From assembly GCA_019694735.1 (NCBI GenBank), contig JAIBBJ010000199.1, positions 16,661 to 80,660 of the forward strand: a stretch of DNA of 64,000 bases, read 5' to 3'. Below the pieces are notes generated by a model, which was not told where the DNA came from, ran no database searches, and was given only the letters and a program-made list of their open reading frames with translations. This DNA is from Gemmatimonadaceae bacterium (GTDB taxonomy: Bacteria; Gemmatimonadota; Gemmatimonadetes; Gemmatimonadales; Gemmatimonadaceae). Position 1 is the first letter of the stretch. Every line of letters starts with the position of its first letter. The translations under genes were made by a program, and so were the position numbers. Below, in pieces: positions 44,430-59,232 of this stretch.

Positions 44430-44456
44430 CGGGACCTCCCGGGTGTTGGCGCGGCC

Positions 44457-45551
44457 TCAGCGCGTGGTGGGGAGCGGGAAGCGGAGCCCGGCGAAGACGC
44501 CCTCGCCGTCGGACGGCATATCGCCGCCGACCGGGGCGAGCGCGACCTCGGCACCTGCCGCGAGCGCCCGCTGCACGAGTGCCTCGATCTCGTCGGGGTG
44601 CTGCCGCCAGGCGCGTTCGGAGAAGATGAGCTCGGCGAGGGCGCCCAGGTCGGCGGCGGTGCGGGCGGGCGTGAGTCCGACGGCGGCCCGGCCGTGTGCG
44701 TGCGCCATCTCGCGCAGCTCCGCGACGCGACGGAGCCGGAGCGTACGCTCGAGGTCCTGGAGGGCCCCATGGATGACCGGGGCGGTCACCGCGTCATCCG
44801 CGGAGAGCGCGAGATCGGCGACCAGCACCGCGCGGTCGGCCACCGCGCCGGGCAGGTGGGCGAGCAGGCGGGCCGCAGCCTCGGCGCCGCCGCCGATCAG
44901 GATCGGCATGGTTCGTCCCGCCAGATGGAGCACCTGGGTGCGCGCGAACGCGAGCAGTCGGTCCGTGGCCTCCTGCCGCTGGCGCTGGTCCTCATCGGTC
45001 CTCGTGCGGCCACGCGTGCCGTCGTGGAACCCGAGGCGCGCCGCGTCCCCCATGTGCGGTCCCGGCTCGTGGTCGAGCGTGGCATCGCGCGAGACCAGCG
45101 GCTCCAGCACACCCTCGTGCCAGCGGTGGATGCGCAGGTGCAGGCGGTCGATGCGGACCACGAGCGCCGGCGGCTCGTCCGCCGCGCGGAGGAACGGGAC
45201 CAGTCGCACGCCCGGGCCCCACGCCACCTGCGTCTCGGCCGCGTCGCGGAGGTGGACCGTGAGCACCTCGCCGCCGGCACTGGCGAAGCAGGCCCACCCG
45301 AGCCCGCCGGCCGGGGTCTCGCCGTTCGGCAGCCGGCCGAGGACTTCCGCGGCGCAGCGCTCGAAGGCGTCCTGCTCGTCGGCCGGGGCCTGGACGAGCG
45401 ACTCGCGGACGTCGTTCAGTCCCTGCCGGAGGCGGACGCGCCAGTTGCGGCGCGCCGCGGGGTCCGCCGGGGCCGCCTCGATGTACACGGAGAGGGTGAG
45501 CTCGTCGCGGTGCGCACGCACGAAATCGAGGAGATCGTCTCGGATGTTCAC
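44457..45551 (-). CDS. Bacterial archaeo-eukaryotic release factor 1 (baeRF)-like protein
   Basis: GTG 45551 after GGAGG; LSVYI N-domain; middle domain VVRIDR..RI / ILIGGG; eRF1 domain-3-like GRAAVG...LAELI...IEALVQRALAAGAEV...GVFAGLRF; no GGQ. Confidence 0.65.
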   Translation of the reverse strand: MNIRDDLLDFVRAHRDELTLSVYIEAAPADPAARRNWRVRLRQGLNDVRESLVQAPADEQDAFERCAAEVLGRLPNGETPAGGLGWACFASAGGEVLTVHLRDAAETQVAWGPGVRLVPFLRAADEPPALVVRIDRLHLRIHRWHEGVLEPLVSRDATLDHEPGPHMGDAARLGFHDGTRGRTRTDEDQRQRQEATDRLLAFARTQVLHLAGRTMPILIGGGAEAAARLLAHLPGAVADRAVLVADLALSADDAVTAPVIHGALQDLERTLRLRRVAELREMAHAHGRAAVGLTPARTAADLGALAELIFSERAWRQHPDEIEALVQRALAAGAEVALAPVGGDMPSDGEGVFAGLRFPLPTTR

Positions 45552-45711: not shown

Positions 45712-45741
45712 ACGGGGCGGCGCCGTCCGGCGCCGCCCCGT
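45712..45741 (-). terminator. 13-bp-stem hairpin downstream of the giant FN3 gene
   Basis: ACGGGGCGGCGCC-GTCC-GGCGCCGCCCCGT, 25 bp past the stop at 45767. Confidence 0.5.
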
Positions 45742-45766: not shown

Positions 45767-48700
45767 TCAGGGATAACCGCGGGCCCAGTGGTTGGTCAGG
45801 TTGCCGGTGTAGGCGGTGGAGAGGATCGGATAGACGGCGGGCAACGCCGTCCCCCACGTGTGGCTGATGTAGTTCACCGTGGTGGGGCTGCCGGTGTCCT
45901 GTGTCCGCGTGATGGTGTTCTGGAAGTTGACCATCAGCCAGTACGTGCCGGCGGCGACCGTCACGTTGCCCGTCGTGAACTCGACCTGGCCGGTCGTGCT
46001 GATGGTCCCGACGGCCTGCGCGACGAGCACGCTGGGCCGGCCGGCGGCATCGGTGTAGAGCCCGATCCGCGCGCCGCCGGTGCCGCCGGCGACGTTCAGC
46101 CCGAGGTGCGTGAGCGTGATCGGCTGCGAGATCGTGATCTGCTGGCCGATCAGGTAGTTCGGGCTCCACGGGCTCGTCCCGGCGAAGGCCGTCGGGTAGC
46201 CGTAGCGCACCACGTACGAGGCCTTCACGGAGACGTTGGAGAACGAGCTGTAGCCCTGCAGCATGATGAACCAGTCACCGGCCGCCGGGTTGTCGATGAC
46301 GCACTCCTCGGCGTTGCCGCCGATGTACGGCCGGCAGTTGAAGAGCCCGAGGGTCGCCGCGAACCCTTGGCGCACGTACAGGTCGGCGTCGCCGGTGCCG
46401 CCCGAGATGGTGACGCGCAGCTGCGGCGTGCCGGCGGGCACGTTGATGACGTAGTGGCGCTGCGCGGACGCGGTGTCCGTGATGCCGGCGATCGTCTGCC
46501 CGTTCGACATCGGGACCGGCATCCACACGCCGGCTCGCACCGTCGTGTCGGAGAGGGTGCCGTTGGAGACCGCGCGGACGGACCACGAGGCGCTGATCCC
46601 GGCCGGCACCGAGGGATAGGTGTACGTCGTGACGTCCGGTCCCACCGTGCCGATCACGCTGACCGGGGTGCACCCGACGCCGCCGCACGCGAGGATCTGG
46701 TAGCCGGTCTCGATCGTGCTGTTGTCGGACCAGGTGACGTCGACCCGCCCGCGGTCCACCACCGTCGCCTGGATGCCGCTGGGCGCGACGAGCACCGTGG
46801 ACGCATCCCCCGACACCGGGCCGCCCGCGGAGAATCCGATGCCGCTCCGGAACGTCCGCACGCGGTAGCGATAGATGCTGTTCGGCACCACCGAGCTGTC
46901 GACGTGCGCGGTGACGTCGACGCCCAGCACCGCGGTGATGCTGAAGTTCGAGCAGCCGGTGCCCGCGCAGCGCTCGATGACGTTGAACGTCTCGTTGTCG
47001 GCGTTGTCGGCCCACGTGACGGTCACGCGGTTGACCGTGTTCGGCGTCACCACGAGCGCGCTCGGGTCGGCCGGCTGCCGCGTGTCCGCCGCCGCCGTGT
47101 TGCTGTACGGGGTCACGCCCACCGCATTGAAGGCGCGGATCCGGTAGACGTATGACCCGTTGAGCACGAGGCCGGTGTTCGCGAAGCCGGTCACGTCCGG
47201 ACCCGTGGTCGCGATCTCCTCGAAGTCGGTGCATCCCGCGCTGCTGCACCGTTCGATGCGGTAGCCGGACTCGTCACTGGCGTTGTCCACCCAGCCCAGG
47301 TTGATCTGGACCGAGTTGATCATCGTCGCCGTCAGCCCCGTCGGGGCCGCCGGCAGCGTGGTCGCCGCGACCGCGGTGGCCGTGTAGGCCGAGTTCCCCA
47401 CCGGGTTCGTCGCGACGATCCGGAACTGGTACGTGTTGTTGAAGGCGAGGTCGTTCACCTGGAAGGCCGCGACGTCCGGCCCCACGCTCGCGAACGGCGC
47501 GAAGTCGACGCATCCGCCGCCCGTGCAGCGCTCGAGGATGAACCCGGTCTCGTTCCCCGAGTTGTCGAGCCAGGTGAGCGACGCCTGGGTCTCCGAGAGG
47601 GTGGTGGCCGCGAGGTTGAGCGGGACGTTCGGCGCATCGAGGAGCTGCAGCACCTCGCTGCTGTTGTCCGACGAGCCCGCCGCGTTGGTGGCGCGGACGC
47701 GGTAGTTGTAGAACTCGCCGGTGGTGAGGCCGGCGTCCTCATAGAAGGTCGAGTTCGCGGGCACGCTGCTCACCGGGGCGAAGTCGGCGCACTCCTTCCC
47801 GAGGCAGCGCTCGATGACGAACGCATCCTCGTTGTTCGCGTTGTCGTTCCAGTCCACCCGGATCGCGGTCGGCGACGTGATGACGAGACCGATGATCTCC
47901 GGGCGGTCGGGCAGCAGGGTCGAGCCCACGGCGAGCGGGGAGGCGCCGGAGATGCCGGCGGCGTTCCGCGCGTAGACGCGGTACGCGTACTGGCGCCCGA
48001 GGTCCACGCGGGCGTCGGCGTAGACCGTCGTCGCCGCGTCCACGGAATCGCGCAGCGCCACCCCGGTGTTGCAGGCCGGGTCGTCGCAGCGTTCGATCAC
48101 GAACCAGATCGGTGCCCCGCCGGCGGACGCGTTCCAGGTCACGTCGATCTGGGTCGCCGTGATGGTCGTCGCCACGACGTCGGTCGGGTCGCCGGGGATG
48201 GAGGTCGTGGCCCCCGCCTCCGCCGTGTAGGCCGAGGCGCCGGCGGCGTTCACCGCCCGCACCCGGTACGTGAAGGATTCATTCGGCGCGATCGGCGCGT
48301 CGGTGAACGCGGTCGTGCCCGGCGGCAGCTGGGCCTGCTCGGTGAAGTCGCTGCACCCGACGCCGGCGCACCGCTCCACGCGGAACGACTCCTCGTTGTC
48401 CGACGCGTCGGCCCAGGCGAGGTCGATGCGCGTGGCGCTCACGGTCGTCGCCGTCAGTCCGGTCGGGGCCGCGGGCAGGTCGGTGTCGAGCTCCACGATC
48501 GCCGAGTAGCCCGAGCTGCCGGCGGCGTTGCTCGCCCGGACCCGGTACCGGTACGTGGTGTTCGCGACCGTCGAGACGTCGCTGAAGCTGACGGTGTTCG
48601 GCGGTTGGAACCCGATCTGGGCGAAGGAGGTGCACCCGGTGCCGGTGCAGCGCTCCACGAAGTAGGCGAGCTCGTTGTCCGCGGCGTCGACCCACGCGAG

Positions 48701-51700
48701 GTCGATCCGGGTGGCGCTGATCACGGTCGCCGCGAGGCCCGTCGGGTCCGCCGGCGTGTTCGTGCCCGCCGCGGCCACGTTCGACGCGCCCGAGACGCCG
48801 GAGGCGTTCTGCGCGCGGACGCGGTACAGGTACGCGATCCCCGCCGGCAGGCCGGTGTCGCTGTAGTTGGTGCTGTTCGCGGCGATCGTCGCGATCGTCG
48901 CGAACGTGCAGGCCGAGGCCTGGCAGCGCTCGATGACGTACGCGGTCTCGTCGGTCGCGTTGTCGGTCCAGGCGAGGTCGATCCGGGTCGCGTTGACCGT
49001 CGTCGCCGTCAGCGCCGTCGGGATCCCCGGCACGTTCGTCACGGCCGAGACGATGGCGCTGTAGCCCGACGGGCCGGCGCCGTTCACCGCGCGGACCCGG
49101 TAGCGGAAGGTGCTGCTGCCCGCGAGGCCGGCGTCGCTGTATTCCGTCGCGCCGGCCGCCGTGGTGGCGATGAGCGCGAAGTCCGTGCAGCTGCCGCCGG
49201 CGCACCGCTCGATCTGATAGCCGGTCTCGTTGTCCGCGTTGTCCGACCACGCGAGGTCGATCCGGGTGCCCGACACCGCGGTCGCGGTCGCGCCGCTCGG
49301 GTCGGCCGGCAGGATCGTCGTCGCGGTCGCGGCGTTCGACCACCCCGAGCTGCCCTCCGAGAAGGCCCGCACGCGGTAGGTGTACGACGTCGCGGCGGCG
49401 ATCGGCGTGTCGCTGTAGCTCGTGGCGTTCGCGGCGAGCGTCGCGAGCAGCGTGAAGCTCGAGCAGCCCGCGCCCGTGCAGCGCTCCACGCGGTAGCCCG
49501 TCTCGTCAGAGGCGTTGTCGGTCCACGCGAGGTCGATCCGGGTCGTCGAGAGCGGGCCCGCGACGAGGTTCGTCGGGTCGAGCGGCACGACGGTGCTGCC
49601 GTCGGCGACGTCGGAGTAGGCCGAGTTCGCGACGCCGTTGTACGACCGCACCCGGTACCGGTAGGTCGTGCCGATGGTCAGCGTCGAGTCGGCGTGCGTC
49701 GTCACGTTGGCCGCGACCGTCGCAACCTCGGTGAACGTCGTGCACCCGACGCCCGCGCACCGCTCGATCCGGAAGCCCGTCTCGTTCGAGGCCGGGTCCG
49801 TCCAGGTCAGGTCGATGCGGGTGCCCAGCACCGTCACGGCGTCGAGTGCCGTCGGGGCGGCCGGGGCGAACGTGTTCGGGCTCACCGTCGCCGTGTACGC
49901 CGAGCTGCCGGCGGCGTTCACCGCGCGGACGCGATAGCGGTAGAAGGTGTTGCTCGCGAGACCGCCGTCCACGTAACCGGTGGCGCCGGGGGCCAGCTGG
50001 ATGAGTTGCGTGAAGCTCGTGCAGGACACGCCGGTGCAGCGCTCGACGCGGTAGCTGACCTCGTTCGTCGCGTTGTCGGTCCACGCCAGCGTGATCTCGG
50101 TGGGGGCCGTCACGACGGCCGAGAGGCCCGTCGGGTCCGCCGGCAGGAGGGTGCTCGCCTCGACCGGCCCGTCATAGCCGGCCGCGCCCGCGTTGTTGAA
50201 GGCCCGGATGCGGTACCGGTAGGCGTTGCCCACCGCGACCGACAGGTCGGTGTACGTGGTGGCGTCCACCGGCGCGGTGCCGATCTCGGCGAAGTCGCTG
50301 CAGCCGCTGCCGGTGCACCGTTCGATCGCGACGCCGTTCTCGTTGGTGGCGTTGTCGGTCCAGCTCAGGTCGATGCGGGTCCCCGTCGTCGTCACCGCGG
50401 CGAGGCCCGTCGTCGCGGCCGGCCGCAGCGTGTTCGCCGTCGCCGTCGCGGAATACGCCGACGCGCCCACGCGGTTCACCGCGCGCACGCGGTATCCGTA
50501 GGTCTGGTCGAGCGCACCCGTCGAATCGACGAGCGAGTTGGTGTTCGGCGCGAGCGAGTCCAGCCGCGCGAAGGTCGTGCAGCCGACCCCCGTGCAGCGC
50601 TCCACCTCGAGCCCGGTCTCGTTGGTCGCCCCCTCCGTCCAGCTCAGCGCGATCCGCGTGCCCGACTGCAGCACGGCGGTCAGGCCGGTCGGCGCGGTCG
50701 GCGTCGTCACCGAGGCGGTCGCCGTGTTCGAGAAGCGCGACGACCCGTTCGCGTTGATCGCCCGCACGCGGTAGGTCATCACGTTGCCGAGCGCCAGCCC
50801 GCCGTCCACGTACTGCGCGACGTTGGTGCCCACCAGGATGAGGTCGCTGAAGTCGCCCTCGCCGCAGGGCAGGGCGGTGCAGCGCTGGATGACGAACCCG
50901 TCCTCGTTCGCCGAGTTGTCCGTCCAGGCGACGGTGATCGCGGTCGGCGAGGTCGCCGTCGCCGTGAGGCTCGTCGGGTCGGCCGGCACGTCGGTCGTCG
51001 CATCGACGACCGCCGAGAAGGCCGAGGCGCCCGCGCCGTTCAGCGCGCGCACCCGGTAGCGGTACGTGAGGTTCGGCGTCAGGCTCGCGTCGCTGTACGC
51101 CTGCGTGTCCGGGGCCAGGCTGTCCACGCGCGCGAACGCCGTGCAGCCGGCGCCGGTGCAGCGCTGCAGCTCGTACGCGGTCTCGTTCGTGGCGTTGTCG
51201 GTCCACGTGAGGTCCACCTGGGTCGCCGAGACCGTCGTCGCCGCCAGGGCCGACGGCGCGGACGGCAGCACCGTGGTCGCCGTGGCGATGTTCGAGGGGG
51301 CCGACGTGCCGATCAGGTTGGCCGCCACGACGCGGTAGCTGTACGACTGCCCGGCGGCGACCGTGCTGTCGATGTGGCTCGCGACGCCGGCTCCGACCGA
51401 GACGAGGTCCGTGAAGCCGCCGCAGGCGACGCCCGTGCACCGCTGGATCGTGAAGACCGTCTCGTTGTCCGAGGCGTCGGCCCACGCGAGCGCGATCCGC
51501 GTGGTCGAGGTCGCCTGCGCGGTCAGCGACGCGGGCGCGGCCGGTGTCGCCAGCGTCGTCACGGCGACCGCGGTGTACGCGGACGCGCCGGCGCCGTTGA
51601 CCGCCCGCAGCCGATACGCGTACGTCAGGCCCGGCGTGAGGCCGGCATCCCCGGCCCCGGTCGCGTTCGCCGCCGCGGTGATCACGAGCGCGAAGTCGCT

Positions 51701-54700
51701 GCAGCCGACGCCGGCGCACCGCTCGATCTCGAATCCGGTCTCGTCGCCCGAGTTGTCGGTCCACGAGATCGTCGTGCCCGTCGCGCTCGCCGGCACCACC
51801 GTGAACGCCGACGGGATCGCCGGGAGGTTCGTCGAGGCCGCCGCCGTGTTGGAGTAGGCCGACGTGCCGGCCAGGTTCCGGGCCCGCACGCGGTAGGTGT
51901 AGGTCTGCGACGCCGTGAGCCCCTCGTTCGCGTACGCCGTCACGTTCGCGCCCACCGAGTCGAGCAGGGCGAACGTGGTGCAGCCCGCGCCCTGGCAGCG
52001 CTCGACGTAGAAGCCGGTCTCGTTCGTCGCGTTGTCGGTCCAGCTCAGGTCCACGCGCGTGTCCGACTGCGTCGCCGCCGCGAGGCCGGTCGGGGCGCTC
52101 GGCAGCTCCGTCGAGGCCGTCGCCGTCGCGGTCGGGGTCGAGAGGCCCGAGAAGTTGCGCGCGAGGACGCGGTACCCGTACACGTTGCCCACGGTCGCCG
52201 TCAGGTCGGTGTACGCGGCGATGCCGCCCGCCACCGAGTCGATGACCGTGAACGTCGCGCAGCCGGCGCCGGTGCAGCGCTCGACCAGCACGCGCGTCGC
52301 ATCGAGCGCGTTGTTGGTCCACGCCAGCGCCACCGAGGTGCCGGACGTCGTGGTCGCCGTCAGCGCGCTCGGCGCGTTCGGGAGCGTCGTCGAGACCGAC
52401 GCGACGTTGGAGGCCGCGCCGGCGCCGACGATGTTGAAGACGACGACGCGGTAGTCGTACGACGTGGACGGGGCGACCGTGGAGTCGATGAACGACGTCA
52501 CGTTCGGCCCGACGGTGTCCAGCGGCGCGTACGTGCACCCGGTGCCCGCGCACCGCTGGACGATCACCCCCGACTCGTTCGCCGCGTTGTCGGTCCACGA
52601 GAGCGTCACGCGCGGGCCGGCCGAGAGCGTCGCCGCCAGCGCGGACGCCGGGTTCGGCGCCCGCGTGTCGCCGATCGCGATCGCCGTGTAGCCCGACGCG
52701 CCCGCGGCGTTGTACGCCCGGACGCGGTACCGGTACGCGGTGCCCGCGGCCACGCTGGCGTCCGCGTAGCCGACGATGTTCGCGCCGACGGTGCCGATCT
52801 CGACGAAGTCCGTGCAGGCCTCGCCGGTGCAGCGCTCGATGCGGAAGCCGAGCTCCGTCACGGCGCCGTCCGTCCAGGCCAGGCTCACCTGCGTCGGGCC
52901 GCTCGTCGTCGCGACGAGGTCGGTCGGGTCGCCCGGCGCGGCCGTGGCGACCGTGGCCACGTTCGACGCCGCCGACGGGCCGGTCGCGTTGACCGCCCGC
53001 ACGCGCCACCGATACGTCGTGCCGGCCGTCAGGCCGGTGTTCTGGTAGGTCACCACGTTCGAGTCGAGCGTCGCGAGCGTCGTGAAGTTGACGCAGCCCA
53101 CGCCCGCGCACCGCTCGACGACCTGCGCCGTCTCGTTCGTCGCGTTGTCCACCCACGACAGGTCCACCTGGGTCGTCGAGATCAGCGTCGCCGTGAGCGT
53201 CGACGGCGCCGCCGCGCTCCGCGTGCTCGCGACCGCATCGCTCGTGTAGGCGGAGTTGCCGACCGCGTTGCGGGCGCGCACGCGGTAGCGATAGTCGCCC
53301 TCCGCGGCCACCGTCTGGTCGTTGTACGTGTTCGTCCCGGCGGTGACGAAGCCCACCTCGGTGAACGCGGTGCACCCGACGCCGCTGCAGCGCTCGATGC
53401 GGAAGGTCGTCTCGTTGTCCGAGGCGTCCGTCCACGCGAGGTTGACCTGCGTCCCCGAGATCGTCGCGGCCGAGAGGCCGGCGGGCGGGGCGGGGAGGAG
53501 CACGGCGGCGAGCACCGGGCCCGCCTCGACCGAGGTGCCGGCCACGCCGACCGCCTTCACGCGGTACCGGTAGCTCGAGCCGACGACCACCGAGTCGTCG
53601 GTGAAGCTCGTGGCGCCGGCCGCCAGCGTCGCGCGCAGGCCGAAGCCCGAGCAGCCGGTGCCGGTGCAGCGCTCGACCTGGAAGCCCGTCTCGTTGCTCG
53701 TCGTGTCGGCCCAGCTCAGGTCCACGCGCGAGGCCGAGACCACGCTGGCGGCGAAGCTCGCCGGCACGCCCGGCGGGCGCGTGTTCGCGTTCGCCGTGTT
53801 CGTCGCCGCCGCCGATGCCCCGGCGACGTTCACCGAGCGCACGCGGTAGCTGTAGTAGGTGTCCGCGATGACCGTGACGTCGCTGTACGCCGTCGCGTTC
53901 GCCGCCGTGGTGTCGATCGCCGCGAACGTCGTGCACCCCTGGCCCGTGCAGCGCTCGATCACGAAGCCCGTCTCGGTCGCCGAGTTGTCGGCCCACGAGA
54001 GGTCGATCTGCGTCGCCGAGATCGTCGTCGCCGCGAGGGCGGTCGGGGCGGCCGGCCGGATGGTGTTCGCGGTCGCGGTGGCGCTGTAGGCCGAGGGCGC
54101 GACGTTGTTCGTCGCCCGGACACGGAACACGTAGGTGTTGTCGAGCGCGAGGCCCGTCGCGCTGGCGGTCGTCGTCCCCGCCGGCAGCGTCGCGATGGTC
54201 GTGAAGTCGGCGTCGCCCGCGCAGGTGCCGTTGTTGCAGCGCTGGACCTCGAACGCCGTCTCGTTGTTCGAGTTGTCCGACCACGCGAGGTCGATCCGCG
54301 AGCCGGAGATCGTCGTCGCCGTCAGCGCGCTCGGGGCCGTCGGGCCGGCGAGCACGACGTCCACCGGGCCGGCGTACGCCGAGTTGCCGATGGCGTTGCG
54401 CGCGCGGACGCGGTAGCGGTACGTCTGGCCGGCGGTCAGCCCGGCGTCGCTGAAGCTCGTGTCGTTCGCCGCGCCCGCCGTCAGCTCGGCGAAGTCCGTG
54501 CAGGCCGCGCCCTGGCAGCGCTCGATCCGGTACGAGGTCTCGTTGTCCGCCGCGTCGGCCCAGCGCACGCGCGCCGCCGTGGCCGACGTCGCGAGCACCG
54601 CGAGCCCCGTCGGGGCCGCGGGCAGCCGCTTCACCGTGAGGATCAGCTCATAGTGGCCCACCGAGCTCCCGGTGCGCCCCACGCGCACCAGCACGTGCTC

Positions 54701-55690
54701 CGTCGCCGGCGCCACGCCGACCACCCGCGAGTCGGTGCTGCCGGTGATGTCATCCTCGGCGGCGCCGAAGCCCGTCGTGCCGTCGGCCCGGAACAACGCC
54801 AGCGTCGTGTTCAGCGGCGAGGCGGGCGTCAGTCGCGCGGCGCGGGTCTCCGCGAACACCGAGTCGCCCGCCCGCACGCTGATCGCCTGCCAACCTTCGG
54901 TGAGCGAGGCGATGAGGTTGCGGTCGCGGAGCGTGTCGGGGACGCCGGCCGGATTGAGGCTCGCCGGCGCGCCGAGGGCGGCCGCCGGGGTGCGGTTCCC
55001 CGTCGAGGGCCGCACGAAGAACTGCCGGGCGTCGCTCCAGATCACCTCGGTGAACGTCTGGAAGGGCAGCACCGGCCGCGTCCGGATGTGCCAGCTGCCG
55101 GTGTCGGACACGGTGACCGTGAACTGCGAGCCCGCGGCCGTCTGCGTCGCCGGCGCGTCCCCGAACGCCGGGTCCCGCGACACCTGGTACTGCCAGCCCG
55201 TCGCCAGCGTGAACGACGTGCTCAGCGTGACCGGCTGCGCGAAGTCGACCGTGTCCGCCACGGCGAACGCCGGGATCGTCGGCACCACCGGCGCCACCGT
55301 GACGTTGCCCGGCACGTTGGCACCGCCGGTCACGGTGATCGCCGCGCCCGAGCGCCCGTAATGCTGCACCTGCCCGCCGACCGTGCCCTCGACGAAGAGC
55401 TCGTACGTGCCGTTCGGCACGTCCGGGATCTGCCCCGTCCAGTTGTTGCTGGTCGTGTTGAGCGTCAGCGCCGCGGAGGTCTGGAAGGTCGTCGTGCCGG
55501 TGCCGCGGATCGTCGCGCGCATGCCGGTGAGCGGCTGGATCGCGTGCGCGCTCAGCGGGTCGGCGACGACCGTGAAGACCGGCGTGATCCGCCCGTGCGT
55601 CTGCGGCCGCGTGGGCGCGTCGCACGAGATGGCCACGGACGCGGCCGCGAGGACGGCCGCCAGGACGAGGGGTCGACGAGTCGTATGCAT
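45767..55690 (-). CDS. 3307-aa surface lipoprotein with 29 fibronectin type III repeats, PPC domain(s) and C-terminal beta-sandwich (putative adhesin)
   Basis: Lipoprotein-type signal ending VAISC; 29 repeats of about 93 aa counted by eye (P..P..L.A....I.L.W.DN..NE.G(F/Y).IERC.G.GC..F...Y.YRVRA.N..G.S); PPC motif GGTGDADLYVRQG..CRPYIGGNAEEC. Confidence 0.9.
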   Translation of the reverse strand: MHTTRRPLVLAAVLAAASVAISCDAPTRPQTHGRITPVFTVVADPLSAHAIQPLTGMRATIRGTGTTTFQTSAALTLNTTSNNWTGQIPDVPNGTYELFVEGTVGGQVQHYGRSGAAITVTGGANVPGNVTVAPVVPTIPAFAVADTVDFAQPVTLSTSFTLATGWQYQVSRDPAFGDAPATQTAAGSQFTVTVSDTGSWHIRTRPVLPFQTFTEVIWSDARQFFVRPSTGNRTPAAALGAPASLNPAGVPDTLRDRNLIASLTEGWQAISVRAGDSVFAETRAARLTPASPLNTTLALFRADGTTGFGAAEDDITGSTDSRVVGVAPATEHVLVRVGRTGSSVGHYELILTVKRLPAAPTGLAVLATSATAARVRWADAADNETSYRIERCQGAACTDFAELTAGAANDTSFSDAGLTAGQTYRYRVRARNAIGNSAYAGPVDVVLAGPTAPSALTATTISGSRIDLAWSDNSNNETAFEVQRCNNGTCAGDADFTTIATLPAGTTTASATGLALDNTYVFRVRATNNVAPSAYSATATANTIRPAAPTALAATTISATQIDLSWADNSATETGFVIERCTGQGCTTFAAIDTTAANATAYSDVTVIADTYYSYRVRSVNVAGASAAATNTANANTRPPGVPASFAASVVSASRVDLSWADTTSNETGFQVERCTGTGCSGFGLRATLAAGATSFTDDSVVVGSSYRYRVKAVGVAGTSVEAGPVLAAVLLPAPPAGLSAATISGTQVNLAWTDASDNETTFRIERCSGVGCTAFTEVGFVTAGTNTYNDQTVAAEGDYRYRVRARNAVGNSAYTSDAVASTRSAAAPSTLTATLISTTQVDLSWVDNATNETAQVVERCAGVGCVNFTTLATLDSNVVTYQNTGLTAGTTYRWRVRAVNATGPSAASNVATVATAAPGDPTDLVATTSGPTQVSLAWTDGAVTELGFRIERCTGEACTDFVEIGTVGANIVGYADASVAAGTAYRYRVRAYNAAGASGYTAIAIGDTRAPNPASALAATLSAGPRVTLSWTDNAANESGVIVQRCAGTGCTYAPLDTVGPNVTSFIDSTVAPSTSYDYRVVVFNIVGAGAASNVASVSTTLPNAPSALTATTTSGTSVALAWTNNALDATRVLVERCTGAGCATFTVIDSVAGGIAAYTDLTATVGNVYGYRVLARNFSGLSTPTATATASTELPSAPTGLAAATQSDTRVDLSWTDNATNETGFYVERCQGAGCTTFALLDSVGANVTAYANEGLTASQTYTYRVRARNLAGTSAYSNTAAASTNLPAIPSAFTVVPASATGTTISWTDNSGDETGFEIERCAGVGCSDFALVITAAANATGAGDAGLTPGLTYAYRLRAVNGAGASAYTAVAVTTLATPAAPASLTAQATSTTRIALAWADASDNETVFTIQRCTGVACGGFTDLVSVGAGVASHIDSTVAAGQSYSYRVVAANLIGTSAPSNIATATTVLPSAPSALAATTVSATQVDLTWTDNATNETAYELQRCTGAGCTAFARVDSLAPDTQAYSDASLTPNLTYRYRVRALNGAGASAFSAVVDATTDVPADPTSLTATATSPTAITVAWTDNSANEDGFVIQRCTALPCGEGDFSDLILVGTNVAQYVDGGLALGNVMTYRVRAINANGSSRFSNTATASVTTPTAPTGLTAVLQSGTRIALSWTEGATNETGLEVERCTGVGCTTFARLDSLAPNTNSLVDSTGALDQTYGYRVRAVNRVGASAYSATATANTLRPAATTGLAAVTTTGTRIDLSWTDNATNENGVAIERCTGSGCSDFAEIGTAPVDATTYTDLSVAVGNAYRYRIRAFNNAGAAGYDGPVEASTLLPADPTGLSAVVTAPTEITLAWTDNATNEVSYRVERCTGVSCTSFTQLIQLAPGATGYVDGGLASNTFYRYRVRAVNAAGSSAYTATVSPNTFAPAAPTALDAVTVLGTRIDLTWTDPASNETGFRIERCAGVGCTTFTEVATVAANVTTHADSTLTIGTTYRYRVRSYNGVANSAYSDVADGSTVVPLDPTNLVAGPLSTTRIDLAWTDNASDETGYRVERCTGAGCSSFTLLATLAANATSYSDTPIAAATSYTYRVRAFSEGSSGWSNAATATTILPADPSGATATAVSGTRIDLAWSDNADNETGYQIERCAGGSCTDFALIATTAAGATEYSDAGLAGSSTFRYRVRAVNGAGPSGYSAIVSAVTNVPGIPTALTATTVNATRIDLAWTDNATDETAYVIERCQASACTFATIATIAANSTNYSDTGLPAGIAYLYRVRAQNASGVSGASNVAAAGTNTPADPTGLAATVISATRIDLAWVDAADNELAYFVERCTGTGCTSFAQIGFQPPNTVSFSDVSTVANTTYRYRVRASNAAGSSGYSAIVELDTDLPAAPTGLTATTVSATRIDLAWADASDNEESFRVERCAGVGCSDFTEQAQLPPGTTAFTDAPIAPNESFTYRVRAVNAAGASAYTAEAGATTSIPGDPTDVVATTITATQIDVTWNASAGGAPIWFVIERCDDPACNTGVALRDSVDAATTVYADARVDLGRQYAYRVYARNAAGISGASPLAVGSTLLPDRPEIIGLVITSPTAIRVDWNDNANNEDAFVIERCLGKECADFAPVSSVPANSTFYEDAGLTTGEFYNYRVRATNAAGSSDNSSEVLQLLDAPNVPLNLAATTLSETQASLTWLDNSGNETGFILERCTGGGCVDFAPFASVGPDVAAFQVNDLAFNNTYQFRIVATNPVGNSAYTATAVAATTLPAAPTGLTATMINSVQINLGWVDNASDESGYRIERCSSAGCTDFEEIATTGPDVTGFANTGLVLNGSYVYRIRAFNAVGVTPYSNTAAADTRQPADPSALVVTPNTVNRVTVTWADNADNETFNVIERCAGTGCSNFSITAVLGVDVTAHVDSSVVPNSIYRYRVRTFRSGIGFSAGGPVSGDASTVLVAPSGIQATVVDRGRVDVTWSDNSTIETGYQILACGGVGCTPVSVIGTVGPDVTTYTYPSVPAGISASWSVRAVSNGTLSDTTVRAGVWMPVPMSNGQTIAGITDTASAQRHYVINVPAGTPQLRVTISGGTGDADLYVRQGFAATLGLFNCRPYIGGNAEECVIDNPAAGDWFIMLQGYSSFSNVSVKASYVVRYGYPTAFAGTSPWSPNYLIGQQITISQPITLTHLGLNVAGGTGGARIGLYTDAAGRPSVLVAQAVGTISTTGQVEFTTGNVTVAAGTYWLMVNFQNTITRTQDTGSPTTVNYISHTWGTALPAVYPILSTAYTGNLTNHWARGYP

Positions 55691-55699
55691 CGGTCAGGA

Positions 55700-57403
55700 T
55701 CAGGGATTCGGGACCGTGATGACCACCGTGCCGGTGGTGCTGCCGCCGCCACCGCCACCACCGCCGCCACCACCACCACCCATCGCGGCCGCCGCGGCGG
55801 CGCCGCCGCCCAGCACCGCGATCCACACCCACTTCGGCATGCCGCCCTTCTTCGCGACCGCCGGTGGCGCGCCGCCGCCCGGGCCCGCGGCCACCGCCGT
55901 GCGCAGCGGCACCGCGATGCGCGTGAGCTGCCCCGGCTGGAGCAGCACGTCCTGCGTGCGCGTCGGCAGCCCCGGGGCGCTCGTCTCGAGGCGATACCGC
56001 CCCATCGGCCCCGTGAACGTGAACGGCGACGCGCCCGTCGTGCCGGTCGTCACCTCGCCCCAGTGCCACCGCTCGATCCCGACGAGGCGCACCGAGGCGC
56101 CCGGCACGTCGGCCACCACCGTCAGCTGGCCGAAGAGATGGTTCTCGCGCCGCGCGACGTCGGCGACCGCGATCGTCTGCTGCGCCGTCACCGCCTGCCG
56201 CGCCGCCGCCAGCAGGGCCGCGGCGTTCGGGCCCGGCACCGCCGCGGACGCGCCCGACCACGGGCCGATCAGCCGGCCGAGGTAGTCCACCACCGGCGAG
56301 CCCGGCACCGCGTTCGCGATCTCCGTCCCCAGCTTGAGCGCGCCGAGCGGCCGCTGCGTCCACTCGTCGAGCGTGCTGCGCGTGTCGCCGGCGGTCCGGC
56401 ACTGCGCGAGGCCGATGCCCCACGCCGCCTGCCCGTCGATCAGCTGCGTCGCGAGCGGCGTCGAGTCCGGCCGCGCCTGCGGCAGCGCGAGCACCGCGAG
56501 GTTCGCGGTCGCGTCGTATGCCGCCACGCGGACTTCGCCCGGGGCGGGCGTGCCATTGAAGGACGCGCTGATCGCATCGCCGCCGCGGATCGCGCTGTAG
56601 GTCGTGACCACGAAGCGCCCGCCCACCACCGCGCCGGCGGCGCACGTCGGCGCCGCCGCGCCGAAGCGCGTCACCGACAGGGCCACGGTCGCGCGGAACG
56701 CCCGCTGCCGCGCGTCCTCGGTGATGTTCGCCGAGACCACCGCCGCCGACGTGAGCTGGAACGAGAGCGTCAGGTTCACGCCCGGCAGCACCTCGCGCGT
56801 GATGCGCGCGGGCAGGTAGCCCGTCGCGCCCACCTCGATCTCGTACGTCCCCGGCGCGAGCGTGAGCCCCGGACCGGCCGGGAGCACGCCGATCGTGTTG
56901 CCGTTGGCGCCGCGCACGAGGACGTTCACCGGCACCGGCATCGTCGAGGGGTCGAGCCGCAGCTGGCCCTGCGCCGCGCGGTTGCCGACGGCGGGCCACT
57001 GGTACGCCATGCGCGTGACGTCGTCGCCCGCGGTGCGCGAGCCGACCGCGGTCCGCGCCGTCCGCAGGGCCGTGACGACGCCCTGCGGGAAGGCGACGGT
57101 GTCGATCACGATCGCCGGATTGGTCCGCATCACCCAGCGCGCCCATGTCCCGGCGAGCGTCTCGTCGCCATTCTCGAGCAGCAGCTGCGTCACGAGTTGG
57201 GCGGCGCGCGCCCAGTTCGCGTCGGGCGCGCCGAGCGCGGGATTGAGCGCCGCGCGCGCGAAGTCCAGCGCGCGGTCGGGCGCGAAGTCGTCGTACGCCT
57301 GCGTCGCCTGCCGGAGCAGGTCGGAGCGCGTGGGCTGCTGCGCCGCGGCGGGCGCGGCGGCGACGGCCGCGAGTGCGGCGGCGAGAAGGAGGCGGCGCAT
57401 CAT
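55700..57403 (-). CDS. Secreted/anchored protein: helical N-domain, PEGA-like, degenerate trypsin-like domain, PEGA-like, hydrophobic + poly-Gly tail
   Basis: Signal peptide AAA/QQ; PGTYEIEVGATGY and GRYRLETSAPG PEGA-like motifs; trypsin-like scaffold (FVVTTYSAI, YD..ANLAVL, PGSPVVDYLGRLIG); ATGA overlap with the kinase. Confidence 0.75.
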   Translation of the reverse strand: MMRRLLLAAALAAVAAAPAAAQQPTRSDLLRQATQAYDDFAPDRALDFARAALNPALGAPDANWARAAQLVTQLLLENGDETLAGTWARWVMRTNPAIVIDTVAFPQGVVTALRTARTAVGSRTAGDDVTRMAYQWPAVGNRAAQGQLRLDPSTMPVPVNVLVRGANGNTIGVLPAGPGLTLAPGTYEIEVGATGYLPARITREVLPGVNLTLSFQLTSAAVVSANITEDARQRAFRATVALSVTRFGAAAPTCAAGAVVGGRFVVTTYSAIRGGDAISASFNGTPAPGEVRVAAYDATANLAVLALPQARPDSTPLATQLIDGQAAWGIGLAQCRTAGDTRSTLDEWTQRPLGALKLGTEIANAVPGSPVVDYLGRLIGPWSGASAAVPGPNAAALLAAARQAVTAQQTIAVADVARRENHLFGQLTVVADVPGASVRLVGIERWHWGEVTTGTTGASPFTFTGPMGRYRLETSAPGLPTRTQDVLLQPGQLTRIAVPLRTAVAAGPGGGAPPAVAKKGGMPKWVWIAVLGGGAAAAAAMGGGGGGGGGGGGGSTTGTVVITVPNP

Positions 57404-59232
57404 CCCTTGGGCTTGAGCTCGATGGTGATCGTCTTCACTTCACCGGCCTGCAGGTCCACCGTCTGCGAGACGGTCTCGTAACCGTCCTTCGAGACCTTGA
57501 TCGTGTGCGTCCCGCCGAGGAGACGCTCCTGGAAGTTCCCCTTGTTGCCGAGCGAGCGGCCGTCGATCTCGACCGTCCCCGCCACGGGGAGCCGCACGCG
57601 GAGCGTCGCCATCGCCGCGTCGGCGGCGCCTGCCGCCGGCGCACTCGGCGCGGGCTGCGTGGCGGGCTGCTGGGCGGGCAGCGTGGAAGCGGGTACGGTC
57701 GCCGGCGCGGAGGCCTGCTGGCGCGGCGCCGGGGCCTTGGTCGGGGCCTTCGTCGGCGCCTTGGTCTCCGCGGCAGGCGCCTTCGTCTCCGCCGCCGGCT
57801 TCGTCTCGGTCGCCGGGGGCGTCGTGGCGGGGGGCGCGCTCGCCCCCGTCGCGGAATCGGTGCCGGTCGTCGCCGCGCCGGCGACCGGGCCCGGCGTCGC
57901 CGTGCCCAGGGCCGACACCGGGGCCGACGCGACCTGCTGCGTCACCGGCGTGGCCGGCGCCTCGCCGCCCTTCGTCGCGAAGTACGCCGCCGCCCCGCCG
58001 CCGAGCACCACCACCGCGCCAATCACGGCGAACAGGCCGGCCTTGCTCTTCGGCTCCGGCGCCGGCGCAGGGGCCGGCGCGGCGGTCCGCGCCGCCGGCT
58101 TCTGCCCCGCCACCACCGTGCGGTCGTTCGGCCCCGTCGTCGCCTTCGCCGCCGACGACCGGTTCTTGCCGCTCGTCGAGCCCGCCGGATTCGCACCCGG
58201 GCCGCCCGTCCGCAGCTTCTTCGCCTCCGCGGGGTCGAGCACGACCGTCGCCACGCTCGGCCGCACCGGGCCGCGGGCCACGAAATCCGGGTCGGCCATC
58301 GACTCGATGAAGTCGTGCACCGTCAGGAAGCGGTCCGCCGCGTCCTTCGAGAGCGCGCGGGCCACCGCCTGCGCGACATGCGCCGGGATGTCCGGCACGT
58401 CGTCGTGCAGCGACGGGGCGGGGAACATGCAGTGCTTGTGCAGGATGTCGATCGCCGAGTCGCCGTCGAACGGCACGTGCCCCGCGAGCATCCGATACGC
58501 CATCACCGCCACCGAGTACTGGTCCGAGGCGCCGGAGACCGGCTTCCCCATCCCCTGCTCGGGGCTCATGAAGTACGGCGTGCCGATCACCGAGTCGGTC
58601 GCCGTGAGCTTCCCCTCGGAGAGCGCCTTCGCGATGCCGAAGTCCGTCACGATCACGCGGTCGCGCGAGTCCAGCATCACGTTCGCCGGCTTGATGTCGC
58701 GGTGGATGACCTTGTTCTGGTGCGCGTAGTCGAGGGCGTCGGCGACCTGGCGGAGGATCTCGCAGGTCTCGTCCACCGGGAGCGACCCGCGCTCCTTCAG
58801 CCGGTCCTCGAGCGACTGCCCCTCGAGGAACTTCATCGCGTACCAGAAGAGCTTGCCGCTGTCGCCGATCCGGTAGATCGGGATGATGTGCGGGTGGTCG
58901 AGCGCCGCCGCCGTCCGCGCCTCGCGCTTGAACCGCTCGACGCCATGACCGAACGTGAGCTCCGGCGGCAGCACCTTCAGCGCCACCTTGCGGGCCAGCC
59001 CCGTCTCCTCGGCGAGGTACACGACCGCCATGCCGCCGCGGCCGAGCATGTGCTTGACGTTGTAGACCCCCTTCGTGTCCTCGCGGAGCAGCCGCTCCAT
59101 GTGCAGGAACGAGGACTGGTCCATCGCCGCGGTCGCCGCGGCTTGGCCCTCGGCGTCGGAGACGAGGGACCCGCAGGAATGACAGAAGCGCGCCTCGTCA
59201 GGGACGGGCGTGCTGCAGTGGGCGCAGATCAT
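57400..59232 (-). CDS. Eukaryotic-like Ser/Thr protein kinase with N-terminal zinc ribbon, TM helix and C-terminal PEGA domain
   Basis: CAHC..CHSC; GRGGMAVVY; VALKVL; HRDIKPANV; DFGIAK; GTPYFMSPEQ; SDQYS; TM LFAVIGAVVVLGGGAAAYF; GTHTIKVSKDGYE. Confidence 0.93.
   Translation of the reverse strand: MICAHCSTPVPDEARFCHSCGSLVSDAEGQAAATAAMDQSSFLHMERLLREDTKGVYNVKHMLGRGGMAVVYLAEETGLARKVALKVLPPELTFGHGVERFKREARTAAALDHPHIIPIYRIGDSGKLFWYAMKFLEGQSLEDRLKERGSLPVDETCEILRQVADALDYAHQNKVIHRDIKPANVMLDSRDRVIVTDFGIAKALSEGKLTATDSVIGTPYFMSPEQGMGKPVSGASDQYSVAVMAYRMLAGHVPFDGDSAIDILHKHCMFPAPSLHDDVPDIPAHVAQAVARALSKDAADRFLTVHDFIESMADPDFVARGPVRPSVATVVLDPAEAKKLRTGGPGANPAGSTSGKNRSSAAKATTGPNDRTVVAGQKPAARTAAPAPAPAPEPKSKAGLFAVIGAVVVLGGGAAAYFATKGGEAPATPVTQQVASAPVSALGTATPGPVAGAATTGTDSATGASAPPATTPPATETKPAAETKAPAAETKAPTKAPTKAPAPRQQASAPATVPASTLPAQQPATQPAPSAPAAGAADAAMATLRVRLPVAGTVEIDGRSLGNKGNFQERLLGGTHTIKVSKDGYETVSQTVDLQAGEVKTITIELKPKG

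What the first reader, a model, noticed from the sequence alone, without database searches (positions are those of the whole stretch)
45767..55690. Giant lipoprotein with 29 disulfide-stapled FN3 repeats and a non-catalytic PPC tip
Seen: every one of 29 repeats carries a Cys-x4-Cys pair (mostly E/Q-R-C-x-G-x-G-C) and most have a W-x-D-N-x-x-N/D-E motif. Repeats are diverged at DNA level, so this is not a recent duplication or a collapse artefact. The tip has a protease-type PPC domain and a further beta-sandwich but no catalytic domain; a second PPC-like segment lies near the N-terminus. Established: most bacterial FN3 repeats lack such Cys pairs, and PPC domains bind insoluble proteins. Inference: a lipid-anchored rod of roughly 100 nm (assuming 3.5-4 nm per domain), stiffened by disulfides and possibly Ca2+, presenting an adhesive tip.
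Basis: partly seen in the sequence, partly recalled or inferred. Interest (0 to 1): 0.7.

Follow-up and report, generated by a model that had tools for sequence, protein, structure and literature searches.

The report
Giant FN3-stalk lipoprotein, kinase-linked
This is a real, conserved 3,307-residue lipoprotein of a Gemmatimonas-like bacterium: a base module, a stalk of exactly 29 cysteine-clamped FN3 domains and a swappable binding tip, always encoded behind a membrane kinase and a dead protease, so it is probably a long-reach binding arm wired to a signalling pair.

Summary
The ORF at 45767-55690 (-) encodes 3,307 aa. It has a lipobox Cys23 and 29 FN3 repeats, each with an invariant Cys-x4-Cys. 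A PPC domain and a non-catalytic jelly-roll tip follow. The repeats are old: 41% protein and 63% DNA identity.

New points:
- The Cys-FN3 is not special to this protein. It is a widespread, apparently undescribed FN3 subtype found in many phyla, often as C-terminal modules on secreted GH44, S8 and C1 enzymes.
- Repeat number is fixed and quantised at 25, 29 or 33. Repeat i matches repeat i across orthologues.
- Congeners keep the stalk but swap the tip: jelly-roll, ALK/LTK-like glycine-rich domain, or an alpha/beta domain.
- The gene is the last of a cassette: Hanks kinase with PEGA ectodomain, then a membrane-anchored pseudo-HtrA, then the lipoprotein. The pseudo-protease gene lies directly upstream of the base-module gene in 21 of 22 Gemmatimonadota genomes that have the base module. 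In other families the stalk is Big_2 plus RCC1 propellers.

Best reading: an envelope-anchored stalk presents a binding tip, and its base docks the pseudo-protease and kinase. Disulfides, surface exposure, the ~100 nm length and signalling are inferred, not shown. The 'second PPC' is supported only indirectly. I class it as a new variant of a known kind, of moderate interest.

The parts
45767..55690 (-). Whole gene for the 3,307-aa lipoprotein (P0001), including the stop codon at 45767-45769
   Evidence: Orthologues of 2,929-3,687 aa.
55622..55690 (-). Signal peptide and lipobox (residues 1-23, ...AASVAIS-C23-D)
   Evidence: Read. It fits the lipobox pattern used. The Cys with an acidic +2 residue is conserved in all homologues.
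54623..55621 (-). Base module, residues 24-356: three beta-sandwich domains (about 23-144, 147-247, 251-356). The third is a probable divergent PPC.
   Evidence: AF2 pLDDT 82 with three domains. Foldseek matches triple-FN3 fragments. No Pfam hit. The homologous N3 domain in L128 hits Pfam PPC at E 6e-8. This is the only part conserved across the whole cassette family.
46514..54622 (-). Stalk: 29 contiguous FN3 domains (residues 357-3059), each with C-x4-C framing the C-C' hairpin
   Evidence: Hairpin position by alignment to titin and FN3con. Positional orthology.
46202..46513 (-). PPC domain (residues ~3060-3163; Pfam 3080-3146) with the conserved pair C3119/C3130
45770..46201 (-). Tip: jelly-roll beta-sandwich (residues 3164-3307), no Pfam family
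45714..45739 (-). GC-rich hairpin (11-bp perfect stem, 4-nt loop) 28 nt after the stop codon; probable operon end
   Evidence: Sequence read. Not found by the T-tract terminator scan.
55700..57403 (-). Upstream partner P0014 (567 aa). It has a signal peptide, a helical N-domain, PEGA/CarboxypepD_reg-like sandwiches, an S1C (HtrA)-like domain without the nucleophile Ser, and a C-terminal TM helix followed by poly-Gly. Its stop lies 9 nt before the giant's ATG.
57400..59232 (-). Upstream partner P0015 (610 aa). It is a Hanks Ser/Thr kinase with a Zn ribbon, a kinase domain with intact VALK/HRD/DFG motifs, a TM helix, a Pro/Ala/Thr-rich linker of about 110 aa and a C-terminal PEGA ectodomain. Its stop overlaps the P0014 start (ATGA).

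Best explanation
The gene encodes an extracytoplasmic, lipid-anchored, rod-like protein made of five parts.
1. A membrane-proximal base of three beta-sandwiches.
2. A stalk of 29 FN3 domains. In each, the C-C' hairpin is closed by a Cys-x4-Cys pair, which is probably a disulfide made by the DsbA/VKOR pathway.
3. A PPC domain.
4. A jelly-roll tip of the kind found at the distal ends of phage fibres.

The stalk acts as a spacer of selected length that holds a modular binding tip far from the anchor.

The base module is the part that co-evolves with the two upstream gene products. These are a membrane-anchored pseudo-HtrA with PEGA-type sandwiches, and a Hanks kinase whose PEGA ectodomain hangs on a long Pro/Ala/Thr linker. 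I therefore propose that the base docks to this pair. Tip engagement, or load on the stalk, would then be reported to the cytoplasm by Ser/Thr phosphorylation.

Shown: the anatomy, its conservation, tip swapping and the synteny. Inferred: disulfides, extension to roughly 100-130 nm, surface exposure, base/pseudo-protease/kinase contact, and signalling.
For: Anatomy.

Selected length:
- Six close orthologues have exactly 29 pairs and 61 Cys, and a seventh, more distant one has 28 pairs and 61 Cys with 29 FN3.
- Repeat i best matches repeat i in about 25 of 29 positions.
- Family-wide counts are 24/25, 29 or 33.

Modular tip:
- The congener G010 and four cluster representatives carry an ALK/LTK glycine-rich domain instead (PDB 7lrz, E 1.6e-10).
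- Two others carry an alpha/beta domain.
- The tip fold matches C-terminal domains of phage pectate-lyase and collagen-repeat fibre proteins.
- The PPC matches the ColG collagen-binding domains and the vEP PPC.

Cassette:
- Kinase, pseudo-protease and lipoprotein are in the same order in the window and in L002-L005 and L127-L131.
- Start and stop are coupled.
- The pseudo-protease gene is directly upstream in 21 of the 22 genomes (out of 401 searched) that have the base module.
- In other families the base is kept while the distal part is Big_2 plus RCC1 propellers.

Precedent for a dead S1C domain used as an extracytoplasmic sensor: the best PDB hit of the partner is the RsgI9 sensor domain.

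Oxidative folding genes are present.
Against: - No experiment or transcript data.
- Localisation is unknown. The conserved Asp at +2 is the inner-membrane retention signal in E. coli (own knowledge). An inner-membrane anchor would make a 100-nm perpendicular stalk impossible inside the periplasm.
- The window's C-D-A-P-T-R does not match the Bacteroidota surface-export signal K-(D/E)2 or Q-A-(D/E)2 (PMC5080379).
- No physical contact between the three proteins is shown; synteny could reflect co-regulation only.
- One locus (L126) lacks the kinase directly upstream.
- No tandem-repeat structure was modelled, so the Cys geometry and the rigidity of the rod are untested.
Confidence: 0.45

Rival explanations
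1. It is a plain adhesin, matrix or fibre protein. It only sticks the cell to surfaces, polymers or other cells. The kinase and pseudo-protease merely regulate or help assemble it and do not use it as a sensor.
For: The architecture of anchor, long beta-sandwich extender and distal binding modules is that of giant bacterial adhesins. The tip and PPC resemble binding domains. One locus has no kinase directly upstream.
Against: The base module and the pseudo-protease gene are adjacent in 21 of 22 genomes across three families, while the stalk and tip are freely exchanged. The partner has lost its nucleophile, so a processing role is unlikely.
Confidence: 0.3
2. It is an inner-membrane-tethered periplasmic scaffold or ruler. 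The Asp+2 lipoprotein stays in the inner membrane and lies along the envelope. It organises or measures something in the periplasm together with the kinase complex.
For: Asp at +2 is conserved. Both partners are inner-membrane anchored. The repeat number is quantised and position-specific, as in a ruler.
Against: Acidic residues after the Cys mean surface export in the related phylum Bacteroidota (PMC5080379). Asp+2 is present in about 9% of predicted lipoproteins here, which does not decide the matter. Swappable phage-fibre-like, ALK-like and RCC1 tips suggest external ligands. The kinase's ~110-aa Pro/Ala/Thr linker is long enough to reach the outer membrane (inference).
Confidence: 0.12
3. 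It is a substrate-capture arm for nutrition. The PPC and jelly-roll would act as carbohydrate- or protein-binding modules that harvest insoluble polymers, as FN3/CBM modules do on secreted hydrolases.
For: The same Cys-FN3 subtype sits on GH44, S8 and C1 enzymes in other phyla. The PPC resembles collagen-binding domains.
Against: There is no hydrolase or transporter in the cassette; the neighbours are a kinase, a pseudo-protease and FeoAB. A 29-domain stalk is far longer than enzyme linkers.
Confidence: 0.1
4. It is an artefact: a mis-assembled or collapsed repeat, or a spurious ORF of a high-GC genome.
For: At 73% GC there are many long spurious ORFs.
Against: GC3 is 0.98 and the longest exact repeat is 27 nt. 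Independent orthologues of the same length come from JGI, NCBI, ENA and Logan assemblies. Pfam fn3 gives E 1.9e-153.
Confidence: 0.01

Closest known systems
Giant repeat adhesins of Gram-negative bacteria (RTX adhesins such as LapA, SiiE, MpIBP; own knowledge)
   Same: Cell-anchored, with a very long extender made of tandem ~90-100-aa beta-sandwich domains, and ligand-binding modules at the far end.
   Different: - The repeats here are FN3, not BIg.
- They are old and individually conserved rather than near-identical.
- The anchor is an N-terminal lipid instead of a T1SS retention module.
- No RTX or T1SS signal appears in Pfam.
- The proposed stiffener is a Cys pair, not Ca2+.
- The gene is tied to a kinase cassette.
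Titin and myomesin FN3 arrays (best PDB sequence hits: 8g4l, 8q6t, 5fm5)
   Same: Same FN3 fold and core motifs. Long arrays in which each position has its own conserved identity, as in a ruler.
   Different: These are eukaryotic and cytosolic. They have no Cys pair at the C-C' hairpin. Titin has 7- and 11-domain super-repeats, whereas no super-period is seen here.
FN3 modules of secreted bacterial hydrolases (here GH44, Peptidase_S8 and Peptidase_C1 proteins with C-terminal Cys-FN3)
   Same: The same FN3 subtype, with the motif NE-x2-[FY]-x-[IV]-[EQ]-R-C-x-G-x-G-C.
   Different: Those carry 1-4 copies as linker or accessory modules on enzymes. Here there are 29 copies, no enzyme, and a lipid anchor.
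PFNA operon of Bifidobacterium (pkb2 kinase, large FN3 protein, MoxR, DUF58, transglutaminase; PMC10688814)
   Same: A Ser/Thr kinase gene is co-operonic with a large membrane-attached FN3-containing protein that has been proposed as a sensor and ligand-binding pair.
   Different: - That FN3 protein has only 2 FN3 domains.
- The partner genes differ: no MoxR, DUF58 or Tgm here, and a pseudo-HtrA instead.
- The phylum and envelope type differ.
RsgI9 anti-sigma sensor of Clostridium thermocellum (PDB 7sjy)
   Same: An S1C-protease-like domain serves as the extracytoplasmic part of a transmembrane signalling protein.
   Different: This concerns the partner protein, not the giant. The output there is an anti-sigma factor, whereas here it is a separate Hanks kinase.
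Collagen-binding domains of clostridial collagenase ColG and the PPC of Vibrio vEP (PDB 5iku, 2luw)
   Same: The PPC-fold beta-sandwich next to the tip. It shares 33% identity with the vEP C-terminal domain.
   Different: No peptidase is attached. Ligand and Ca2+ dependence are unknown.

Membership tests
Fibronectin type III domain (Pfam PF00041) | Profile match above the gathering score; core Trp in strand B and the Y-x-Y-R-V tyrosine-corner strand | tested here: met
   499.5 bits against a cut-off of 25. A HMM built from the repeats finds 29 domains. Trp is invariant and YRVRA is conserved.
PPC, bacterial pre-peptidase C-terminal domain (PF04151): C-terminal copy | Profile match above the gathering score, and the PPC fold | tested here: met
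   66.2 bits overall, 70.9 bits on the C-terminal fragment, against a cut-off of 25.9. Foldseek gives TMt 0.80 to vEP C-ter100.
PPC (PF04151): proposed N-terminal copy (residues ~251-356) | Profile match, or profile-profile similarity to a PPC | tested here: inconclusive
   No Pfam hit at E<=10. hhalign against the C-terminal PPC gives probability 0.3%. However, the homologous domain of relative L128 scores 33.8 bits against the 25.9 cut-off.
Bacterial lipoprotein | Sec-type signal peptide ending in a lipobox with an invariant Cys | tested here: met
   MHTTRRPLVLAAVLAAASVAIS-C. The pattern matches and is conserved in all homologues.
Bacterial lipoprotein | Actual acylation and membrane location | not testable with these tools
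   Needs palmitate labelling and cell fractionation.
RTX / T1SS giant adhesins | RTX nonapeptide repeats, a C-terminal T1SS signal, and BIg extender repeats | tested here: not met
   No such families appear in Pfam or NCBIfam. The protein has an N-terminal Sec/lipobox signal instead.
Bacteroidota surface lipoproteins with a lipoprotein export signal | K-(D/E)2 or Q-A-(D/E)2 directly after the lipidated Cys (PMC5080379) | tested here: not met
   The window reads C-D-A-P-T-R. Relatives read C-D-D, C-K-D-V-E, C-D-E-D and C-E-D-E, which is acidic but not the published consensus. Whether the rule applies in Gemmatimonadota is unknown.
Titin-type ruler array | Position-specific conservation of repeats between orthologues | tested here: met
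   Repeat i best matches repeat i in about 25 of 29 positions in five orthologues. Identity is 0.42-0.78 depending on position.
Titin-type ruler array | Super-repeat periodicity | tested here: not met
   Identity is flat at 0.41-0.43 for lags 1-12, even though length changes come in blocks of four repeats.
PFNA-type kinase/FN3 operon (Bifidobacterium) | pkb2, fn3, aaa-atp (MoxR), duf58 and tgm together | tested here: not met
   Only a kinase and an FN3 protein are present. The neighbours are a pseudo-HtrA, FeoAB, an aeRF1-like gene and a CBS gene.
HtrA/S1C serine protease (partner P0014) | Catalytic His-Asp-Ser triad | tested here: not met
   The fold is detected (RsgI9 E 4.5e-6, Deg1 E 8e-6). 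The Ser column holds Pro, Ala, Val or Ile in all five orthologues; Asp is Asn in four of five; His is kept in only two.

The most novel reading that the evidence does not exclude
The three genes form an undescribed contact- or load-sensing system of Gemmatimonadales. A lipid-anchored 'antenna' has exchangeable stalk and tip: 25, 29 or 33 Cys-clamped FN3 domains with a jelly-roll, ALK-like or alpha/beta tip, or else Big_2 plus RCC1 propellers. It reports distal binding through a dead HtrA adaptor to a Hanks kinase. Stalk length is set in 4-domain (~15 nm) quanta to match a fixed distance outside the cell.
Probability: 0.25. Interest if true: 0.8.

Novelty: new variant of a known kind. Interest (0 to 1): 0.55.

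Why it matters
Three things would follow if the model holds.
- It would be a bacterial case of a titin-like array: domain-counted and position-specific, used outside the cell. The natural 25, 29 and 33 variants would give a direct test of whether length matters.
- It would add a new input device for bacterial Ser/Thr kinases, namely a separate giant lipoprotein plus a pseudo-protease adaptor.
- It would give a first functional context for bacterial homologues of the ALK/LTK glycine-rich domain.

Independently of the model, the Cys-x4-Cys FN3 is a common, structurally unsolved FN3 subtype of soil and sediment bacteria. It deserves its own family model and a solved structure.

Tried and rejected
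- The search for related loci with the 29-repeat alignment failed because it found no conserved 7-10-column stretch. I replaced it with a degenerate DNA motif scan.
- Second PPC at the N-terminus: rejected for the window's own sequence by Pfam at E<=10 and by hhalign. It was revived only through relative L128.
- The N1 domain as a PEGA/CarboxypepD_reg relative: hhalign probability 40% over 16 columns, which is inconclusive.
- Super-repeat periodicity: none.
- Pfam on the G010 tip found nothing. A PDB phmmer search then found the ALK/LTK domain.
- The class-c tip gave only sub-threshold hits to DUF4350, GATase1-like and GIFT.
- A Tat signal was considered because of the T-R-R in the window protein. 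I rejected it because the RR is not conserved in orthologues.
- I looked for a conserved fourth gene downstream on the same strand in relatives. Only antisense-looking ORFs of a convergent gene turned up.
- The sigma-70 promoter and T-tract terminator scans found nothing.
- Literature searches for a described Cys-FN3 subtype, or for this protein in Gemmatimonas, found nothing.
Full report

The minus strand of 45767-55690 is one open frame of 3,307 codons. Its third-position GC is 0.98 in a genome of about 73% GC.

The protein has 61 cysteines. One is Cys23, at the end of a signal peptide and lipobox (…AASVAIS-C-D). Fifty-eight form 29 C-x4-C pairs spaced 92-96 residues apart. Two lie in the C-terminal PPC domain.

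Pfam gives fn3 at E 1.9e-153 and PPC (PF04151) at residues 3080-3146. Neither Pfam nor NCBIfam finds a catalytic family.

In an alignment of the 29 repeats the only invariant columns are the core Trp and the two Cys. [EQ]-R-C occurs in 28 of 29 repeats and C-x-G-x-G-C in 18 of 29. The strict W-x-D-N-x-x-[ND]-E motif occurs in 16 of 29 and a relaxed form in 27 of 29.

The repeats share on average 41% protein identity and 63% DNA identity. The longest exact DNA repeat is 27 nt.

**2. Organism and relatives**

The nearest named relatives are MAGs labelled Gemmatimonas or Gemmatimonadaceae.

Nine full-length homologues came from a search with the C-terminal region. Six (3,299-3,323 aa) have exactly 61 Cys and 29 pairs. 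One distant homologue of 3,312 aa has 28 pairs. Two of about 2,930 aa have 25.

Repeat i of the window protein is most similar to repeat i of each 29-repeat orthologue in about 25 of 29 positions. The mean identity is 0.60, against 0.42 for non-corresponding repeats. The array is therefore ancient, not homogenised, and each position has its own identity.

Across the family, HMM-counted repeat numbers are 24/25, 29 or 33. A domain-level alignment places one contiguous four-repeat gap between the 29- and 25-repeat forms. It also places an unmatched four-repeat block in the 33-repeat form. There is nevertheless no four-repeat periodicity in sequence identity. I cannot explain the steps of four.

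**3. The Cys-FN3 repeat is a widespread subtype**

In the window's own genome only this protein has it; five other FN3 domains there lack the pair.

I scanned one genome per species for the motif N-E-x2-[FY]-x-[IV]-[EQ]-R-C-x-G-x-G-C. By my own uniform-base estimate about 0.07 matches are expected by chance. The hits came from:
- Acidobacteriota
- Gemmatimonadota
- Desulfobacterota-type MAGs
- Nitrospirota
- Chloroflexota
- Chthoniobacterales
- Rhodothermales
- Zixiibacteriota
- a Heliobacteriaceae MAG
- Methylomicrobium

.

In most of these the module occurs once to four times at the C-terminus of secreted proteins. Pfam identifies the catalytic parts of three of them as GH44, Peptidase_S8 and Peptidase_C1.

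Among the 150 best multi-FN3 proteins in the 1.84-billion-protein library, 772 of 3,060 FN3 domains carry the pair. These include other long arrays and other lipoproteins.

No solved structure found by profile or single-sequence search has the pair. By alignment to titin and FN3con it frames the turn between strands C and C'.

I found no paper that describes this subtype. The repeat is therefore neither unique nor well described.

**4. Are the pairs disulfides?**

This was not tested directly. The following points favour it:
- The pairs are invariant and there is no unpaired Cys apart from the lipobox.
- The protein is exported.
- The same motif sits on secreted enzymes.
- The genome encodes VKOR and two DsbA-like thioredoxins, though no DsbB.

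In FN3 topology (own knowledge) the C-C' hairpin lies at the C-terminal pole and the B-C loop, which carries W-x-D-N-x-x-N-E, lies at the N-terminal pole. In a tandem array both conserved motifs would therefore sit at domain junctions, which fits a stiffening role. That is inference.

**5. The two ends**

*C-terminal 256 residues.* The AF2 model was built with nine orthologues and has pLDDT 89. It shows two beta-sandwiches.
- The first is the PPC. Foldseek matches the ColG tandem collagen-binding domains and vEP C-ter100 (33% identity, TMt 0.80).
- The second has no Pfam family. It is a jelly-roll that matches about 170 columns at 3-4.5 Å. The matches are C-terminal domains of phage proteins annotated as pectate-lyase superfamily, collagen-repeat and DUF2793 proteins, and a 202-aa Anabaena phage A-4L protein.

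*N-terminal 334 residues.* The model has pLDDT 82 and shows three beta-sandwich domains that match triple-FN3 fragments.

However, the homologous third domain of a relative (L128) passes the Pfam PPC threshold. It is probably a very divergent PPC.

**6. Tip swapping**

A congeneric genome (G010) has the same lipobox, base module, 29 FN3 and PPC. After the PPC it carries a glycine-rich domain homologous to the ALK/LTK ligand-binding region (PDB 7lrz, E 1.6e-10).

Among twelve family representatives at 50% clustering:
- six have the jelly-roll tip,
- four have the ALK-like tip,
- two have an alpha/beta domain with only weak GATase1-like or DUF4350 hits

.

Within one tip class the tip does not diverge faster than the stalk. 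Variation is by module exchange.

**7. The cassette**

Two genes lie directly upstream on the same strand.

*P0015* is a Hanks kinase. It has a Zn ribbon, intact VALK/HRD/DFG motifs, one TM helix, a Pro/Ala/Thr linker of about 110 residues and a C-terminal PEGA domain.

*P0014* has a signal peptide, a helical domain, two PEGA/CarboxypepD_reg-like sandwiches, a central domain and a C-terminal TM helix followed by poly-Gly.

The kinase stop overlaps the P0014 start (ATGA). P0014 ends 9 nt before the giant's ATG. A perfect 11-bp GC hairpin follows the giant's stop.

A profile of P0014 orthologues hits the S1C-like sensor domain of the anti-sigma factor RsgI9 (E 4.5e-6) and the protease Deg1 (E 8e-6). 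The nucleophile Ser column is never Ser in five orthologues. The Asp is Asn in four of them, and the His survives in only two. P0014 is therefore a pseudo-protease.

The three-gene order is kept in the window and in L002, L003, L004, L005 and L127-L131. This holds even where the flanking genes differ.

In 401 Gemmatimonadota genomes the base module occurs in 22 and P0014 homologues in 26. Twenty-one genomes have both. In each of these the P0014 match lies directly upstream on the same strand.

The giant FN3 form (2,940-3,546 aa) is confined to 5 of 8 genomes of the window's genus. In another family of the same order the third gene keeps the lipobox and base module but continues with Big_2 domains and RCC1-like propellers, or with the jelly-roll tip. 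Those forms have no Cys-FN3.

What is conserved with the kinase and pseudo-protease is therefore the membrane-proximal base. Stalk and tip are interchangeable payload.

**8. Most likely mechanism**

The order of events would be:
1. Export by Sec.
2. Lipidation at Cys23.
3. Oxidative closure of 29 hairpins and of the PPC pair.
4. The base sits at the membrane and docks the PEGA-type sandwiches of the pseudo-HtrA and of the kinase ectodomain.
5. The stalk holds the PPC and jelly-roll tip far from the anchor. If each FN3 contributes 3.5-4 nm, this is roughly 100-130 nm in all. That figure is arithmetic, not measurement.
6. Tip binding or load changes the base complex and thereby kinase activity.

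Steps up to the anatomy are shown. Contact, extension, location and signalling are inferred. I put about 0.45 on this coupled-sensor reading and about 0.3 on a plain adhesin or fibre whose neighbours only regulate it.

**9. The main uncertainty is location**

Asp at +2 is conserved. In E. coli it retains lipoproteins in the inner membrane (own knowledge). In Bacteroidota, acidic residues after the Cys direct surface export (PMC5080379), but the window's C-D-A-P-T-R does not fit that consensus.

In this genome about 9% of roughly predicted lipoproteins have Asp+2, which decides nothing.

A periplasmic, membrane-parallel ruler therefore remains possible; I put about 0.12 on it.

**10. Comparison with known systems**

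It works like the giant repeat adhesins, which also have an anchor, an extender and distal binding modules. It is not a member of the RTX/T1SS class, because it has no RTX repeats or T1SS signal, carries a lipobox instead, and uses FN3 rather than BIg.

Its array behaves like titin in position-specific conservation, but it has no super-repeat.

A kinase-plus-FN3-protein operon has been described in Bifidobacterium (PFNA; PMC10688814), but its partner genes are different.

The pseudo-protease partner has a precedent in RsgI9.

I file it as a new variant of a known kind. The repeat itself is ordinary in distribution, though unstudied. The interest lies in the quantised stalk, the tip exchange and the obligate kinase/pseudo-protease cassette.

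**11. Limits**

- No tandem-repeat model was made.
- Organism names come only from record titles.
- Genome handles are anonymous.
- The repeat counts of fragmentary proteins may be off by one.

Noticed in passing
L005 (G010:C1:1014000-1033000), minus-strand ORF of 3,455 aa: A congener's orthologue ends in a domain homologous to the ALK/LTK glycine-rich ligand-binding region (PDB 7lrz, E 1.6e-10) instead of the jelly-roll tip. Four cluster representatives (P0020, P0022, P0024, P0025) do the same. Pfam did not recognise the domain.
   Followed up: partly
window 45767-55690 and orthologues: Lysine is almost absent: 4 of 3,307 residues against about 1.9% genome-wide, and 3-13 Lys in all orthologues. 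Arg is 5.2%, and the protein is net acidic.
   Followed up: partly
P0010, P0016 against P0001: Family repeat counts fall into classes 25, 29 and 33. The differences map to contiguous blocks of four FN3, although there is no four-repeat periodicity in sequence identity.
   Followed up: partly
window 55700-57403 (-): The S1C-like pseudo-protease lacks the nucleophile Ser in all five orthologues. The two most distant orthologues (L004, L005) keep the catalytic-His position (TSYHAIRG), and L003 keeps the Asp. The C-terminus is a TM helix followed by a run of 13 Gly and a conserved G-T-x-x-I-x-V-P-N-P tail.
   Followed up: partly
window 57400-59232 (-): The kinase has an N-terminal zinc ribbon. Between its TM helix and its PEGA ectodomain lies a Pro/Ala/Thr-rich, partly repetitive (AETKAP) linker of about 110 residues. 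That is long enough in principle to span a periplasm.
   Followed up: no
L045, L084, L054 and others: The same Cys-x4-Cys FN3 subtype is a C-terminal module of GH44, subtilase and papain-family enzymes, and of BNR/sortilin-like proteins, in Verrucomicrobiota, Chloroflexota, Desulfobacterota and Acidobacteriota. It often follows a Pro-Thr linker.
   Followed up: partly
L127, L129, L130 (family f2 genomes): In the sister form of the cassette the third gene is base module + Big_2 + one or two RCC1-like beta-propellers, with 31-34 Cys.
   Followed up: partly
L128:5665-8184 (+): The open frame of the third gene in this relative runs into a partial protein-kinase domain at its C-terminal end (Pfam Pkinase, residues 715-828). 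This is either a fusion or a frame artefact.
   Followed up: no
L004:20897-29939 (-): Convergent to the distant orthologue lies another giant gene. Its called product is 6,521 aa with Big_1/Invasin_D3 domains.
   Followed up: no
window 59618-62829 (-); L002, L003: A DtxR-type regulator fused to FeoA, plus feoB, lies directly upstream of the cassette in the window and in two orthologous loci, but not in L004. It is therefore probably not part of the cassette.
   Followed up: partly
window 43965-45551 (-); L002:20134-21207: An aeRF1-like (baeRF_family10) gene follows the giant gene in the window and in L002, but not in L003 or L004.
   Followed up: no
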